A stretch of DNA of 64,000 nucleotides from Candidatus Marinacidobacterium sp. (GTDB lineage Bacteria; Acidobacteriota; Vicinamibacteria; Marinacidobacterales; Marinacidobacteraceae), in assembly GCA_965204755.1 (NCBI GenBank), contig OZ242011.1, positions 2,688,001 through 2,752,000 on the forward strand. Direction: 5' to 3'. Both the position numbers and the translations under genes were made by a program. The notes beneath the pieces were generated by a model. That model worked only from the letters and a program-made list of their open reading frames with translations, had not been told where the DNA came from and did no database searches. This document shows positions 30,770 through 35,055 of this stretch, in pieces (the first letter of the stretch is position 1; each line of letters starts with the position of its first letter).

Positions 30770-33700
30770 ATGGGCACGGTGGAGCGAGAGGAGTTGGCCT
30801 CGATCCGGGACTTCGAGGCACTGACGGAGTATCTCAAGGAGAAACTGGACTGGCCGATCTCGGAGCGCCACGAAGAAGTCTTCTTCGAGTACTCGCCCGA
30901 GGAACTGGGCATCCGCGACGACCATCGCGTGGACATCGAAAAGATCCACCGCGCGAGCATCGAGAAGATTCGCCGCCTGCGGTCCCCGATTCCGAACTCG
31001 CCGTGGGGGATCTTCTTCGTCGAATTCGCGAAGAAGCGGCTTCCGGTGGTCGCGCTTCGGCGAATTCTCAGCCGGGTGACGATCAAGAAGCGAACCGCCA
31101 CCGGCAGCGCCGACCTGCCTTCGTGGCGCTTGGGAGACCTGCTGTTCATTTCCTTCTCCGGAGCCGACAACGACCGTGCGATCAATTTCGCCCACTTCAC
31201 CGAGGCTGCGAGGAGCCGCGTGCCCACGCTCAGAGTCCTCGGCTGGGACGGGAAGGACGCGAATCTCCATCTCGACCATGTGGCGGAGGAACTGAAGACC
31301 CATCTGAAGTGGCCGGAAGACGGGGAGGATGTGGAGTCGTGGAGGAGCCAGTGGCGGGCGGCCTTCACGGTCGCCCACAAAGAACCGATCAAGACCGCCG
31401 GGGCATTGTCGTCCCGCCTCGCCGTGCTGGCGCGGGGCATACGGGAGCGCGTCGGAGCCGTACTCGACATCGAAAACGAGGACGGCTGGGTGACGAAGTT
31501 GATGGGGTCGTTCGAGAAGACCCTCCTTCAGGGCCTGACGAAGCGCGCGTTCGCGGACATGTACGCGCAGACGGTGGCGTACGGACTCCTTTCCGCCCGT
31601 ATCACGGATCCCGCCGCAGCAGCCAAGAACAGCCTCGCCCGGTACCTGCGGACGAATCCGCTTCTTCGGGACATGCTGAAGGCTTTCTTGGCAGGAGAAC
31701 CGGGAAGTGCCGCGACGGAGGCGTCGAGGGACATCGACTTCGACGAGTTGGCGGTTTCGGAGGTCGTGGAACTGCTCGACTCCGCGAACATGGACGCGGT
31801 GCTGCGTGACTTTCGCAGACGCTCGGAGAACGAGGATCCGGTCGTCCACTTCTACGAGTCCTTCCTGCAAATGTACGATCCGGAAATGCGGACGGAACGC
31901 GGCGTCTTCTACACGCCGCGGCCGGTCGTGCGATACATCGTGCGCTCCGTAGACGCCCTGCTCCGGTCCGAGTTCGGCTTGGAGGACGGCCTCGCGGACA
32001 CGACGACTTGGGGCGAGTTGGCGAAGCGGCGACCCGAACTGGTCGTTCCCGACGAGGTGCCGCCGGATTCGCCCTTCGTGACTGTCCTCGATCCGGCCAC
32101 CGGAACGGGGACCTTTCTGGTGGAAGTGATCGACTGCATCCACGGGCGGCTGACCCGGAAATGGAGGGGGAACGGCGGTTCCGAGGATCAGGTGAAGGAA
32201 CGGTGGAACGCCTATGTCGAAGAGCACCTGCTCTCGAGGCTCTATGGGTACGAGTTGCTGATGGCGCCCTATGCCATGGCGCATCTGACCATCAGCCTTA
32301 AGTTGCGGGAGACCGGTTTCACCTTCGGCGCCGACAGCCGCGCCCATGTCTATCTCACGAACACCTTGGAGCCGCCTCACGATCACACCGGTAAGTTCGA
32401 GTTCGCGATCCCCGCCTTGGCGCTTGAATCGAAGGCCGTGAGCGTCACGAAGAAGGACAGACGCTTCACGGTCGTTCTCGGGAATCCGCCCTACTCGGGG
32501 CACTCGGCGAACAAGGGGAAGTGGATTCGCGATCTTCTTCACGGTCGGGTCGGAGAAGAGCGGGATATGGAGGACTACTTCTCGGTAAGCGGGAAGCCGC
32601 TGGGCGAAAGGAACCCGAAGTGGCTGAACGACGACTATGTGAAGTTCGTTCGCTACGCGCAGTGGTTGATTTCCCGCGCGCGGTTCGGAATCCTGGGGTT
32701 CGTCACCAACCACAGTTTCCTGGACAGTCCGACCTTTCGCGGGATGCGCGAGAGCCTGATGAGGTCTCGGCAGGTCCATGTCCTGGATCTGCACGGGAAC
32801 ACGAAGAAGAAGGAACGGACACCGGACGGCGCCGTTGACGAGAATGTATTCGACATTCAGCAGGGCGTCTCGATTTCGATACTCACGCGGAACGGAAGCA
32901 CGGGGAACGGGGTTCCTGAGGTGCTGCACGCGGATCTGTGGGGTCGTCGGAATTCCGTTGGGGGGGGGGGGGGGGGGGGGCAAATATGTGTGGTTGGAGC
33001 GTCACACCGTCGAAACTACGGACTGGCGCCGGCTGGAACCGCGAGAGCCGTTCTTCCTCTTCGTGCCGCGTGACAACACGCTGGCGGAGGAGTACGAGAG
33101 GGGGTGGAGCCTTCCGGAGATCTTCCCGCTGAATTCGGTCGGGATCGTTACGGCGCGAGACAGCCTTACGATCCAGAAGACGCGAGAGGCGATGGAGGCG
33201 GTCGTTTCCGATTTTGTGTCCCGCGAGCCGGAGAAGGCGCGGAAGATCTACGGCTTGCGCAAGGACACACGAGACTGGACAGTGCGCAAGGCGCAGGCAG
33301 ACCTGCGCGAATCCCGCGGCGCGATTGTCCGAATCCTGTATCGGCCGTTCGATGTGCGATGGACTTGGTACTCTGGCCTTAGTAGAGGCTTCCTTTGCAT
33401 GCCGCGGTTCGATGTTATGCGGCACATGCTTTGCGAGAGAGAGAGAGAGAGAGAGAGAGAGAGAGAGAGAGAGAACCTCGCACTCGTCTCCACGAGACAG
33501 TGTCAGCGCGACTGGCATCCGCTCGCGGCCAGCATCATCGTCGGACATCACGCGGTCGAGTCCGTCGACATCAGTTCGGTCTTTCCCCTGTACCTCAAGG
33601 GAATCTCGGGTTAGTGTCGGTGCGGCAAGTGGCCGAGAACCTGTTCGATCATGTGTGCGTGAGCCGCTCGGTGGTGGATTTCCGTACGACCCTGAGCAAC

Positions 33701-35055
33701 AAGGGCGGCGCGTACCTGTTCCCGCTGTACCGGGAGGAAGACTCGCGCTGATCACATGTCGTCAAACGACCGGGAGCCGCGCGGAGTGGGCGCATTGCGC
33801 GGCGAGTCGGTGGATCGCGGAGTCCTGCGCGGTCTCGAACGCGACTCGGGAGATCGGATACCTGTTTCCGCTGTCCATGAGGACTGAGACAACGGGCGTC
33901 GGCCGTCCCCCGGCGCGCGTACCGAACCTGGCGAAGGCGTTCACCGACGCCATCGTGGAGCGGATCGGCTTGGAGTTCGTGGCCGAGGGAACCGGGGACC
34001 TGCGCTCGACAGTCGGGCCGGAAGCCATTTTCCACTACATCTACGCGGTCCTGTCGAGTCCGGAGTATCGCCGGCGCTATGTGGACTTCCTGAAGTCCGA
34101 CTTTCCGCGCGTGCCGCTTCCCGGCGGGCGGAGCATCTTCTCCGATCTCTCCGAAGTCGGGGAGCGCCTGACGCGCCTGAGCCTCATGGAGGCGCCGGTG
34201 GTCGGTAAGATCGCGTGGCGGCAAGCGCCGGGCGTCCTCATTCCCAACTGGTGCGTCGAGAAGGTGCGGTTCGACGAAGTCGAGGGAGAAGGCCGCGTGT
34301 GGATCAACCAGGGGGCCTGCTGCGCGGAGGTGCCGCGGGAAGTCTGGGAGTTCTCCGTGGGGGGATATCGGCCGGCGCGGAAGTGGCTGATGGACAGGAA
34401 GAACGACACGCTCGGGGACCGCGATCTCGAGCACTATCGGGTCATCGTTTCCGCTATCGGTGAGACGATCGAGCGGATGCGGCAGGTGGACGAGATCATC
34501 GAGACTCACGGCGGCTGGCCGGCCGCGTTCGAATCCACGGCGTCGAGCGAGGAAGTCGAAGTCCTCCCCTTTCAGCGGCTCGAGGAACTCCCGGAGGCGG
34601 CGGATCGGTATCGGGACTGCGTACCGCTCGTGCCGCTGGCGGCCGCGGCCGGAGCGTTCGGCGAGCCCCAGTTGGTGGACGAGGGGGAGGAGTTCGAGTG
34701 GGTTCGCGTGGACACGCGGCGGCGGCTTCGGAAGGGGATGTTCGTGGCGCAGGTCGTCGGGAAATCCATGGAGCCGAAGATCCCGGACGGCGCGTGGTGC
34801 CTCTTCCGGTCTCCGGTGACAGGAACGCGGCAGGGGAGGACGCTCCTGGTGCAACTGCGGGACGCCGTCGACCCGGACACCGACCAGCGCTACACGGTGA
34901 AGCGCTACGAGAGCCGGAGGGTGCGGCGCGGCGACAGTTGGCGCCACGAACGCATCCGGCTCCTTCCGCTGAATCCGGAGTTCGACCCGATCGAGATCGG
35001 GAAGGAGGACGAGGTGCAGTTCGTCGCGGAACTGGTGGAGGTCCTCGGCGGCTGA
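30770..35055 (+). CDS. Phase-variable N6-adenine methyltransferase with Type ISP-like specificity domain and C-terminal S24 peptidase domain; interrupted by G21 and (GA)20 tracts
   Basis: GVFYTP, LDPATGTGTF, GNPPY, LNDDYVKF, FLDSPTFRGMR (30770..33073 frame); continues KYVWL..YRPFDVRW (32778..33614 frame) and IFHYIYAVLSSPEYRRRY..DFPRVP..VWEFSVGGY..KWL (33214..35055 frame). Confidence 0.88.
32960..32980 (+). repeat. Poly-G tract G21, phase-variation switch (OFF as assembled)
   Basis: gtt-G21-caaatat; G20 or G23 restores the frame into GGC AAA TAT (GKY). Confidence 0.9.
33435..33474 (+). repeat. (GA)20 dinucleotide SSR, frame selector
   Basis: 40 nt perfect GA repeat inside the TRD; encodes (ER)n in all three frames. 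Confidence 0.95.
33474..33614 (+). other. TRD cassette 1 (frame A), ends in TAG
   Basis: NLALVSTRQCQRDWHPLAASIIVGHHAVESVDISSVFPLYLKGISG*. Confidence 0.8.
33602..33751 (+). other. TRD cassette 2 (frame B), ends in TGA
   Basis: NLGLVSVRQVAENLFDHVCVSRSVVDFRTTLSNKGGAYLFPLYREEDSR*. Confidence 0.8.
33739..33876 (+). other. TRD cassette 3 (frame C), contiguous with the C-terminal domain
   Basis: RLALITCRQTTGSRAEWAHCAASRWIAESCAVSNATREIGYLFPLS. Confidence 0.8.

What the first reader, a model, noticed from the sequence alone, without database searches (positions are those of the whole stretch)
33435..33887. Three-way reading-frame selector: one (GA)n tract chooses among three tandem specificity cassettes of a DNA methyltransferase
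Seen: directly after (GA)20, three homologous but divergent 40-46 aa segments lie in tandem. Each runs from an NLAL/NLGL/RLAL..RQ start to an FPL(Y) end. They start at 33474, 33602 and 33739 (spacings 128 and 137 nt, both 3n+2), so each is in a different frame. GA repeats encode (ER)n without stops in every frame. (GA)20 reads cassette 1 and stops at 33614. (GA)19 reads through cassette 1 out of frame, translates cassette 2 and stops at 33751. (GA)18 or 21 reads through cassettes 1 and 2 out of frame, translates cassette 3 and continues to 35055. Every frame that must be traversed is stop-free, whereas frame A over cassette 2, which is never needed, has extra stops (TGA 33660, 33693). Established: this segment lies in the target-recognition domain of Type ISP-like (LlaGI/LlaBIII-type C-terminal domain) enzymes; SSR slippage normally gives ON/OFF or full/truncated switching, and multi-specificity switching normally needs invertase shufflons. 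Inference: this is a recombinase-free, reversible three-state specificity switch multiplexed across reading frames. I know of no description of this, but cannot check the literature.
Basis: partly seen in the sequence, partly recalled or inferred. Interest (0 to 1): 0.96.

Follow-up and report, generated by a model that had tools for sequence, protein, structure and literature searches.

The report
Three-frame cassette switch in a methyltransferase
A slippery DNA repeat inside a bacterial restriction-modification gene is followed by three alternative versions of a DNA-reading loop, one per reading frame, and selection has kept this layout in several bacterial lineages; I found no earlier description of it.

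Summary
(GA)20 lies at 33435-33474. It is followed by three diverged 42-48 aa copies of one segment of the Type ISP C-terminal domain, each in a different frame. Copies 1 and 2 end in stops; copy 3 runs on to 35055.

It is not chance or decay. The same array sits behind a repeat at the same codon position in three other loci: (GA)20 in a congener, (AG)32 in another acidobacterial class, and (C)38 in a Spirochaetia genome. Window versus congener, each cassette has dN/dS 0.15-0.33 in its own frame and about 1 or more in the other two. The out-of-frame stretches that must be read through hold 0 stops in 505 codons (about 9.8 expected). A repeat and a triple array always occur together.

The cassette aligns to the TRD-core beta-hairpin plus base-reading Loop VI of LlaBIII. 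Uninterrupted relatives carry one cassette type each.

The difficulty is that cassettes 1 and 2 give proteins without the last third of the TRD and without a C-terminal LexA-like S24 module. A three-isoform switch is therefore well supported, but three specificities are not shown.

A second repeat, (G)21 at 32960-32980, adds an ON/OFF switch. GA-length variation could not be measured.

The parts
27628..30756 (+). Gene 1: PLD (HKD) nuclease fused to an Snf2-type helicase, 1042 aa
   Evidence: Pfam PLDc_2 1.8e-11 and Helicase_C 6e-21. PADLOC 'HKD+Snf2' 1.8e-55. Conserved directly upstream of gene 2 in L017, L027 and L043 at 64-74% identity.
30770..32959 (+). Gene 2, N-terminal region and gamma-class N6-adenine methyltransferase domain (frame mod 3 = 2)
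   Evidence: Pfam N6_Mtase 3.9e-11 and Eco57I 2.2e-6. PADLOC REase_MTase_IIG 3e-124. NPPY motif at 32483.
32960..32980 (+). (G)21 repeat: ON/OFF frame switch between the methyltransferase and the TRD. As assembled it is out of frame; G20 (or 17, 23) joins the two.
   Evidence: The congener also has (G)21, there in frame. Run X9 holds four short contigs whose lengths imply G19, G20, G21 and G22.
32991..33434 (+). TRD N-terminal part (frame mod 3 = 0), PF18135 columns 1 to about 108; single copy
   Evidence: dN/dS 0.11-0.15 against the congener. Aligns to LlaBIII residues about 1190-1333, which include the Loop V region.
33435..33474 (+). (GA)20 repeat, read as (ER)n in any frame: the selector
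   Evidence: Repeats at the same site elsewhere: (GA)20 in L017, (AG)32 in L043, (C)38 in L027.
33474..33614 (+). Cassette 1 (frame mod 3 = 0) with its stop TAG at 33612-33614
   Evidence: 33.3 bits. dN/dS 0.18 in its own frame against 1.56 and 1.59 in the others. The same type is the only cassette of an uninterrupted relative, L014.
33602..33751 (+). Cassette 2 (frame mod 3 = 2) with its stop TGA at 33749-33751
   Evidence: 35.1 bits. dN/dS 0.15 in its own frame against 0.98 and 2.41 in the others. Differences at codon positions 1, 2, 3 are 7, 3, 17, p = 0.003.
33739..33876 (+). Cassette 3 (frame mod 3 = 1), the only one continuous with the rest of the protein
   Evidence: 59.5 bits. dN/dS 0.30-0.33 in its own frame against 2.0 and 1.2 in the others.
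33877..34641 (+). Rest of the TRD: variable linker, conserved C-terminal helices of the core, and the guide-like region
   Evidence: PF18135 to column 340. Aligns to LlaGI and DrdV chains. dN/dS about 0.24-0.85 in 60-codon windows.
34642..35055 (+). LexA-like module: AAAG motif, then an S24 peptidase domain with its Ser and Lys motifs; stop at 35053-35055
   Evidence: Pfam Peptidase_S24 1.1e-9. Motifs at 34642, 34759 and 34894. In 119 of the 120 listed hits this domain occurs together with PF18135.

Best explanation
This is a two-gene, Type ISP-like restriction-modification system. Gene 1 encodes an HKD nuclease fused to an Snf2 helicase. Gene 2 encodes a methyltransferase, a TRD and an S24 module. 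Gene 2 is a contingency gene.

What the sequence shows:
- A hypermutable repeat sits in the loop just before the TRD-core beta-hairpin and Loop VI.
- Three anciently diverged versions of that 42-48 aa element lie behind it, one per reading frame.
- Tract length modulo 3 therefore decides which version is translated.
- In the other two frames the ribosome reads earlier cassettes as stop-free filler.
- Frame 3 gives the full-length enzyme, with about 100 aa of repeat plus filler in a loop.
- Frames 1 and 2 give short forms that end a few codons after the cassette (about 30 codons after it for cassette 2 of L027).
- In this lineage a (G)n tract upstream adds an ON/OFF switch.

What I infer:
- The cassettes differ in the base-reading loop, so the isoforms differ in DNA target.
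- The short forms keep every known base-reading element but lack the guide and S24 parts. They are probably uncoupled from the nuclease-helicase. That would make one restriction-proficient state and two short-form states.
For: Layout.

Same domain columns.

Cassette position in solved structures: it aligns to LlaBIII 1334-1374, including N1360, which reads a base (PMC4872093 passages).

Conservation: the same array lies behind a repeat at the same site in L017, L027 and L043, which come from two phyla and three classes.

Cassette relationships:
- Cassettes of one position resemble each other across loci: c1 43-71%, c3 50-73%, c2 63-88% in 3 loci.
- Cassettes within one locus are only 26-48% alike.
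- L043 has a different type at position 2 but keeps the frame stagger.

Selection:
- Own-frame dN/dS is 0.18, 0.15 and 0.33, against 0.98-2.4 in the other frames.
- Substitutions favour the third codon position in c1 (p = 0.036) and c2 (p = 0.003).

Stop depletion:
- The frames that must be read through hold 0 stops in 505 codons.
- The frames never needed hold 15 stops in 555 codons (Fisher 7e-5).
- The background in these genes is 355 stops in 18309 out-of-frame codons, which predicts 9.8 (Poisson 6e-5).

Association of repeat and array:
- A repeat was scanned for only in L017-L063; 3 of those 47 loci have one.
- Those 3 are the fetched loci with three cassettes, and the window is the fourth triple array.
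- Of the 66 sequences with any cassette hit, 58 have one cassette, 4 have a spurious or split second hit and 4 have three. Not all of the single-cassette loci were scanned for repeats.

All three states occur in assemblies: c1 in the window and L017, c2 in L043 and P0232, c3 in L027.

The repeat type changes while the array persists: GA, AG, C, and an inferred AGCAG in P0123.
Against: - The short forms lack LlaBIII-equivalent residues about 1375-1578. In Type ISP enzymes the guide forms the surface against which the core packs, so short forms may be unstable. No activity is shown.
- GA-length variation was not measured.
- The dN/dS figures rest on one species pair with 27-42 differences per cassette. 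The codon-position test for c3 is not significant (p = 0.17).
- The four loci share ancestry, so the pooled P values overstate the case. The frame stagger itself is one historical event with a chance probability of 2/9.
- All loci come from metagenome-assembled genomes.
- The window and L017 have identical tract lengths, which is odd for hypermutable tracts.
Confidence: 0.55

Rival explanations
1. A full three-specificity switch. All three cassettes end up in a complete TRD, because the part downstream of cassette 3 is also made as a separate polypeptide (by internal start or reinitiation) and assembles with the short forms.
For: - Each cassette type works in a full-length context elsewhere. 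P0122 has a c1-type cassette joined to the C-terminal part.
- The linker after the FPLY motif is long and variable, so it is a natural split point.
- An ATG directly after cassette 3 is conserved in the window, L017 and the relatives P0006 and P0011. Gene callers start P0001 and P0004 near it.
Against: - There is no ATG at that place in L027 or L043.
- The only Shine-Dalgarno-like GGAG lies 24 nt upstream of the ATG in the window.
- None of the 52 loci tested encodes the C-terminal part as a separate gene. In 50 of 52 the cassette and the C-terminal part are one frame; the 2 exceptions are plain indel frameshifts.
Confidence: 0.15
2. A plain ON/OFF switch. Only the cassette 3 frame matters. 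Cassettes 1 and 2 are silent spare copies, kept because they are occasionally moved into the expressed position by recombination or deletion.
For: - Two of the three stop-free read-throughs are needed for the ON frame anyway.
- P0122 and P0121 show that arrays do get rearranged.
- Only the cassette 3 state gives a complete domain.
Against: - It does not explain why cassette 1 follows the repeat directly in frame, or why the three frames all differ.
- It does not explain why the cassette 2 frame is also open across cassette 1 in 4 of 4 loci and in P0232.
- It does not explain why cassettes 1 and 2 are more constrained (0.15-0.18) than cassette 3 and the C-terminal part (0.30-0.38).
- Tandem Repeats Finder reports no DNA repeat across the cassettes. 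By eye, homology at cassette boundaries is only about 8-12 nt.
Confidence: 0.17
3. A decaying pseudogene produced by old tandem duplications, or an assembly artefact.
For: The gene as assembled is broken twice: (G)21 is out of frame and there is a stop after cassette 1. All sources are metagenome assemblies.
Against: - Own-frame purifying selection.
- Stop depletion in the read-through frames.
- Conservation across two phyla with changing repeat types.
- L027 is one uninterrupted open frame through the repeat, both upstream cassettes and cassette 3.
- Independent short-read contigs confirm the layout.
Confidence: 0.03

Closest known systems
Type ISP restriction-modification enzymes LlaGI and LlaBIII
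   Same: - Gamma-class N6-adenine methyltransferase followed by a PF18135 TRD.
- The cassette aligns to the core beta-hairpin plus Loop VI of LlaBIII.
- A helicase-nuclease partner is present.
   Different: - The nuclease-helicase is a separate protein and its nuclease is PLD/HKD, not Mrr.
- The C-terminus carries an S24 module.
- The gene has repeats and three cassettes.
- No such feature was seen in the passages of PMC4872093 that I read.
Repeat-driven phase variation of restriction-modification genes: Type III mod, Type IIG cj0031, and Type I hsdS with full or truncated forms
   Same: A repeat inside the coding sequence shifts the frame. For hsdS, a truncated product can have a different specificity. 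The sources are PMC7383803, PMC5909438 and PMC4889913, of which I saw search listings and abstracts only.
   Different: Those switches have one productive frame, or one full and one truncated form. Here each of the three frames meets its own homologous, selected copy of the recognition element.
Invertible or recombining hsdS shufflons (pneumococcal, Mycoplasma, Bacteroides systems)
   Same: Several alternative recognition modules are stored at one locus and expressed one at a time. This is recalled; PMC6265443 and the bioRxiv preprint 10.1101/2020.06.18.137471 appeared in search listings only.
   Different: Those need a recombinase or homologous recombination and inverted repeats. Here no Pfam recombinase family was found in the flanking ORFs that I scanned, and the choice is made by reading frame.
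Viral co-transcriptional editing at a slippery tract (paramyxovirus P/V/W, ebolavirus GP forms); recalled, not searched
   Same: One slippery run gives access to three alternative downstream reading frames and therefore three protein isoforms with a common N-terminus.
   Different: That slippage is at the RNA level, is not heritable, and the three downstream parts are unrelated sequences, not homologous cassettes. Here the slippage is presumed to be in DNA.
Frameshift suppression at (AG)n in Mycoplasma bovis mod1 (bioRxiv 10.64898/2026.04.01.715767; abstract and outline read)
   Same: An (AG)n tract in a methyltransferase gene gives more than a binary outcome.
   Different: That work reports leaky expression from OFF frames, not alternative cassettes.

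Membership tests
Pfam PF18135 Type ISP C-terminal specificity domain | Significant match to the family profile over the domain | tested here: met
   E = 1.3e-25 (columns 1-152) and 1.4e-45 (columns 116-340), both above the 25.9-bit cut-off. The cassette 2 ORF alone scores 18.8 bits, below the cut-off.
Type ISP restriction-modification enzyme (LlaGI/LlaBIII type) | A single polypeptide with Mrr nuclease, SF2 helicase, methyltransferase and TRD | tested here: not met
   Two genes. The nuclease is PLD/HKD, fused to an Snf2-type helicase, in gene 1. The methyltransferase and TRD are in gene 2.
Type ISP restriction-modification enzyme (LlaGI/LlaBIII type) | Gamma-class N6-adenine methyltransferase with an NPPY motif, next to the TRD | tested here: met
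   N6_Mtase and Eco57I matches. NPPY at 32483. A profile of relatives matches 4xqk at 4.3e-33 and 5ffj at 1.5e-31.
Type IIG/IIL enzymes (MmeI, DrdV type) | Nuclease, methyltransferase and TRD in one chain | tested here: inconclusive
   PADLOC REase_MTase_IIG 3e-124, and the best PDB match is DrdV 7lo5 at 5e-40. No nuclease domain was detected in the first ~340 aa of gene 2.
Repeat-driven contingency (phase-variable) locus | A repeat tract inside the coding sequence, long enough to slip, whose length sets the frame | tested here: met
   (GA)20 and (G)21; frames worked out.
Repeat-driven contingency (phase-variable) locus | Tract length varies within or between populations | tested here: inconclusive
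   Poly-G: contigs in run X9 imply G19 to G22 at depths 60, 65, 41 and 27, but Illumina stutter cannot be excluded, and 70 records were not shown. GA: not bridged by k = 31 contigs. Between relatives: (C)38 in L027 against only PPP in P0232.
Peptidase S24 (LexA/UmuD-like self-cleaving module) | S24 fold with a Ser-Lys dyad and an upstream Ala-Gly cleavage site | tested here: inconclusive
   Pfam 1.1e-9. The motifs AAAG, GKSM and TVKRY are present. Which residues are catalytic, and whether it cleaves, rests on recalled knowledge of LexA.

The most novel reading that the evidence does not exclude
A heritable, reversible, recombinase-free switch among three DNA-recognition specificities. All three isoforms are active methyltransferases with different target motifs, and only the full-length form restricts. 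One dinucleotide tract would then set both the methylome and the defence state. The design would be a general way to store three alternative protein modules in the three reading frames of one stretch of DNA.
Probability: 0.3. Interest if true: 0.95.

Novelty: new variant of a known kind. Interest (0 to 1): 0.85.

Why it matters
Repeat-driven phase variation is normally treated as ON/OFF, or at most full versus truncated. Here selection has kept a homologous, functional-looking module in each of the three frames behind the repeat, and has kept the read-through frames free of stops. That means all three outcomes of slippage are used.

If the isoforms differ in target, this is a new route to multi-state epigenetic and defence variation that needs no recombinase.

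It also bears on annotation. Such genes look like pseudogenes and break short-read assemblies at the repeats. They are therefore probably under-counted. The three fetched loci with a repeat all come from the 17 records titled 'chromosome: 1' among the 47 loci scanned.

The family's C-terminal LexA-like module is a second open question. It hints at control of a restriction enzyme by DNA damage.

Tried and rejected
- GA-tract length in public reads: only Logan contigs were on offer. They stop at the 40-nt tract, so nothing can be said.
- Close relatives of the N-terminal fragment, to read (ER)n lengths: the searches found nothing closer than 62% and 52% identity. The 12 short proteins fetched were contig-cut or otherwise broken single-cassette genes.
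- JGI metagenome contigs held no locus above 52% identity over the full C-terminal part, and no further triple array.
- Phylum-wide search with a cassette profile: 13 of 401 genomes had a match, and only the window's genome had three. At most 18 candidates per genome were scored. Four matches with short open frames proved to be ordinary single cassettes, or the IS-split one.
- A separate C-terminal gene: not found in 52 loci. L058 and L104 are indel frameshifts without a repeat.
- A conserved internal start for a C-terminal fragment: not found.
- Opposite strand: the three long minus-strand ORFs have no Pfam match.
- Rfam: nothing near a gathering score.
- No tRNA within 15000-50000.
- Structure and complex prediction were not run. 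A fold of a truncated domain, or of two halves of one domain, would mostly reflect likeness to solved structures and would not have changed my odds.
- Literature: searches (phase variation, reading frames, TRD, Type IIG, cassettes; S24 with restriction-modification) turned up no description of frame-staggered cassettes or of the S24 fusion. This covers only the open-access library that was searched. Supplements are closed, and those of PMC4872093 (alignment of 552 Type ISP enzymes) might bear on cassette variability.
- In one search I gave a wrong frame for the S24 part of L017, which produced a meaningless 18% identity. I redid it correctly.

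
Full report
OBSERVATION

The window has (GA)20 at 33435-33474. Translation in three frames shows three related segments directly behind it.
- Cassette 1 starts at 33474, lies in the frame with position mod 3 = 0, and ends at TAG 33612-33614.
- Cassette 2 starts at 33602, lies in frame mod 3 = 2, and ends at TGA 33749-33751.
- Cassette 3 starts at 33739, lies in frame mod 3 = 1, and is open to 35055.

Each runs from an N/R-L-x-L...RQ start to an FPL end. So are the extra stops at 33660 and 33693 in the unused frame. Short-read contigs of runs X9, X10 and X3 cover 33484-34000 in one piece with 0, 0 and 9 differences, so the tandem layout is real.

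THE GENE AND ITS NEIGHBOURS

The tract lies in a roughly 4.3-kb gene (30770-35055). Its parts are:
- an N6-adenine methyltransferase (Pfam N6_Mtase and Eco57I; NPPY at 32483);
- a Type ISP C-terminal specificity domain (PF18135);
- a Peptidase_S24 domain at the C-terminus, preceded by an AAAG motif.

Directly upstream lies a 1042-aa PLD/HKD nuclease fused to an Snf2-type helicase (27628-30756; PADLOC 'HKD+Snf2' 1.8e-55). A Fic/DOC gene precedes that.

As assembled it is out of frame. G20 would join the two parts.

WHAT THE CASSETTE IS

All three cassettes fall on the same PF18135 columns, about 109-156. An HMM built only from the single cassettes of 15 uninterrupted relatives scores them at 33.3, 35.1 and 59.5 bits.

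A profile of those relatives aligns the cassette to LlaBIII residues 1334-1374. According to passages of PMC4872093, this is the structurally conserved beta-hairpin of the TRD core followed by Loop VI. It includes N1360, which reads a base (equivalent to H1368 of LlaGI). Loop V lies just upstream of the repeat and exists in one copy.

Every base-reading element named in that paper lies N-terminal of the cassette's end. The guide subdomain, which is downstream, does not read bases, but it forms the surface against which the core packs.

Uninterrupted relatives carry exactly one cassette directly after the conserved MRHML motif. They fall into distinct types, among them the window's type 1 (L014), type 2 (L015, P0043) and type 3 (P0018, P0019, P0021, P0024, P0026, P0032). 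The cassette is thus the family's variable recognition module.

RELATIVES WITH THE SAME ARCHITECTURE

- A same-genus genome (G001) has (G)21, (GA)20 and three staggered cassettes, with stops after the first two. The same locus was fetched as L017, whose record title reads Candidatus Marinacidobacterium sp.
- L043 (record title Candidatus Multivorans sp., another acidobacterial class) has (AG)32 at the same site.
- L027 (a Spirochaetia genome) has (C)38 at the same site.
- Each of these is followed by three cassettes in three frames, the first two ending in stops.

Cassettes of one position resemble each other across loci: c1 43-71%, c3 50-73%, c2 63-88% in three loci. Within a locus they are only 26-48% alike. 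L043 has a different type at position 2 yet keeps the stagger. The array is therefore old and has been inherited or transferred as a unit, while the repeat in front of it has changed type.

Protein searches add further variants:
- P0123 ends after a type 1 cassette and has a five-residue peptide repeat, from which I infer an (AGCAG)n tract.
- P0124 ends after a type 1 cassette and has no visible repeat.
- P0232 is a relative of L027 with only three prolines. It reads through cassette 1 out of frame into cassette 2.
- P0121 has (ER)5 and then the cassette 2 region out of frame, with no cassette 1.
- P0122 has no repeat. Its type 1 cassette is joined to the C-terminal part through about 60 residues that look like a type 3 cassette read out of frame.

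Gene 1 is conserved upstream in all three loci at 64-74% identity.

IS IT SELECTED?

The window and L017 align without gaps from 33390 to 33990. dN/dS by the Nei-Gojobori method:

| Region | Own frame | Other two frames |
|---|---|---|
| Cassette 1 | 0.18 | 1.56, 1.59 |
| Cassette 2 | 0.15 | 0.98, 2.41 |
| Cassette 3 | 0.33 | 2.01, 1.20 |
| Upstream TRD | 0.11 | |

Differences by codon position 1, 2, 3 in the own frame:
- c1: 8, 6, 17 (p = 0.036)
- c2: 7, 3, 17 (p = 0.003)
- c3: 14, 9, 19 (p = 0.17)
- upstream TRD: 19, 12, 40 (p = 1e-4)

For comparison, gene 1 has 0.20, the methyltransferase 0.25 and the part downstream of cassette 3 has 0.38.

Cassettes 1 and 2 are thus at least as constrained as the only cassette that yields a full-length protein. 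These figures come from one species pair and 27-42 differences per cassette.

STOP-FREE READ-THROUGH

Three out-of-frame stretches must be traversed: cassette 1 in frames 2 and 3, and cassette 2 in frame 3.
- Over the four loci they hold 0 stops in 505 codons.
- The stretches never needed hold 15 stops in 555 codons (Fisher 7e-5; 8 of the 15 are the terminators themselves).
- The out-of-frame stop density in the rest of these genes is 355 in 18309 codons. That predicts 9.8 stops (Poisson 6e-5).
- Per locus the expectation is only 1.5-3.6. The loci share ancestry, so the pooled figure overstates independence.

ASSOCIATION AND PREVALENCE

- A repeat scan of 47 loci (L017-L063) found a tract in 3 of them, each about 450-520 nt upstream of the C-terminal match.
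- The cassette HMM hit 66 sequences: 58 have one cassette, 4 have a spurious or split second hit, and 4 have three. The 58 include two places fetched twice.
- The 3 repeat-bearing loci, plus the window, are exactly the four triple arrays. The loci outside L017-L063 were not scanned for repeats.
- In 50 of 52 loci the last cassette is in frame and continuous with the C-terminal part. The two exceptions are indel frameshifts without a repeat.
- In a phylum-wide sample, 13 of 401 genomes matched a cassette profile and only the window's genome had three matches.
- All three fetched repeat-bearing loci come from the 17 records titled 'chromosome: 1' among the 47. Short-read contigs break at both tracts, so the architecture is probably under-counted.

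STATES SEEN, AND READS

Frames of the flanking parts put the window and L017 in the cassette 1 state, L043 and P0232 in the cassette 2 state, and L027 in the cassette 3 state. L027 is one uninterrupted frame from the methyltransferase to S24.

Run X9 holds four short contigs over the poly-G tract. Their lengths and gaps imply G19, G20, G21 and G22, at depths 60, 65, 41 and 27, against about 250-280 in the flanks (70 records were not shown). This fits a variable tract, with the in-frame G20 the commonest listed length. Sequencing stutter at a 21-nt homopolymer cannot be excluded.

The GA tract is longer than the contigs' word size, so its variation could not be measured.

The window and L017 share identical tract lengths although their synonymous divergence is about 0.9. 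I cannot explain this.

THE DIFFICULTY

In all four loci, cassettes 1 and 2 stop 2-10 codons after FPLY. Cassette 2 of L027 is the exception and stops after about 30. Those products lack the conserved C-terminal helices of the core, the guide-like region and the S24 module.
- I found no conserved start signal for a separate C-terminal fragment. An ATG after cassette 3 is conserved only in the Marinacidobacterium group, and the nearest GGAG lies 24 nt upstream.
- I found no relative in which the C-terminal part is a gene of its own.
- Yet selection on cassettes 1 and 2 in their own frames says the short forms, or something made from them, matter.

MECHANISM

My best account has two parts.

Shown by sequence: tract length modulo 3 chooses which recognition cassette is translated. 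Earlier cassettes are read as stop-free filler inserted in a loop that already tolerates (ER)n or polyproline. One frame gives the full enzyme and two give short forms.

Inferred: the cassettes differ in the Loop VI equivalent, so the isoforms differ in DNA target. The short forms keep all base-reading elements but lack the parts likely to couple to the nuclease-helicase and to the S24 control.

The rivals are:
- a plain ON/OFF switch with silent spare cassettes;
- a decaying pseudogene, which the evidence contradicts.

COMPARISON AND NOVELTY

The system is Type ISP-like in its methyltransferase and TRD. It fails the single-polypeptide and Mrr-nuclease criteria.

It works like repeat-driven phase variation of mod, hsdS and Type IIG genes (listings and abstracts only). 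Those have one productive frame, or a full and a truncated form.

The logic of one slippery run opening three downstream frames is known from viral mRNA editing (recalled). There the downstream parts are unrelated and the change is not heritable.

Five literature searches found no description of frame-staggered homologous cassettes behind a repeat, nor of the S24 fusion. The library is open-access only and supplements were closed.

I rate it a new variant of a known kind. It is of high interest, and the key functional claim is still open.

Noticed in passing
window 34642-35055: The methyltransferase-TRD protein ends in a LexA-like module: an AAAG motif about 40 residues before an S24 peptidase domain with Ser and Lys motifs. 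One search found 1011 proteins at E <= 1e-10 among the 8000 candidates scored, and 119 of the 120 listed carry PF18135 together with Peptidase_S24. This suggests damage-triggered self-cleavage of a restriction-modification enzyme. The search found no paper on it.
   Followed up: partly
window 32960-32980: A second repeat, (G)21, lies in the same gene at a Gly-rich loop that uninterrupted relatives encode as GGGG. It is out of frame as assembled. Contigs in run X9 imply G19-G22.
   Followed up: partly
L022 5663-6943 (same place as L180): A type 1 cassette of a single-cassette relative is split by a roughly 1.15-kb insertion that encodes what looks by eye like an IS630-type transposase (no family search was run).
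   Followed up: partly
P0122 (protein): A full-length relative without a repeat. Its type 1 cassette is in frame and is followed by about 60 residues that look like a type 3 cassette read out of frame. It appears to be a resolved descendant of an array.
   Followed up: no
window 33435-33474 and 32960-32980 against L017 6520-6559 and 6045-6065: Two species with synonymous divergence of about 0.9 have exactly the same tract lengths, (GA)20 and (G)21. This may be coincidence, a preferred length, or an effect of assembly polishing.
   Followed up: no
window 25895-27247: A Fic/DOC family gene lies directly upstream of the nuclease-helicase gene. Whether it belongs to the system was not checked in the relatives.
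   Followed up: no
L045 5873-8173 (P0096): One open frame joins the N-terminal PLD part of a gene 1 homologue to the C-terminal part and S24 of a gene 2 homologue. This looks like a large internal deletion.
   Followed up: no
window 39636-41930: An AAA_21/AAA_15 (AbiEii-like) ATPase gene lies about 4.5 kb downstream, beyond a peptidase gene and a TRAP-transporter gene. It may be another defence gene.
   Followed up: no
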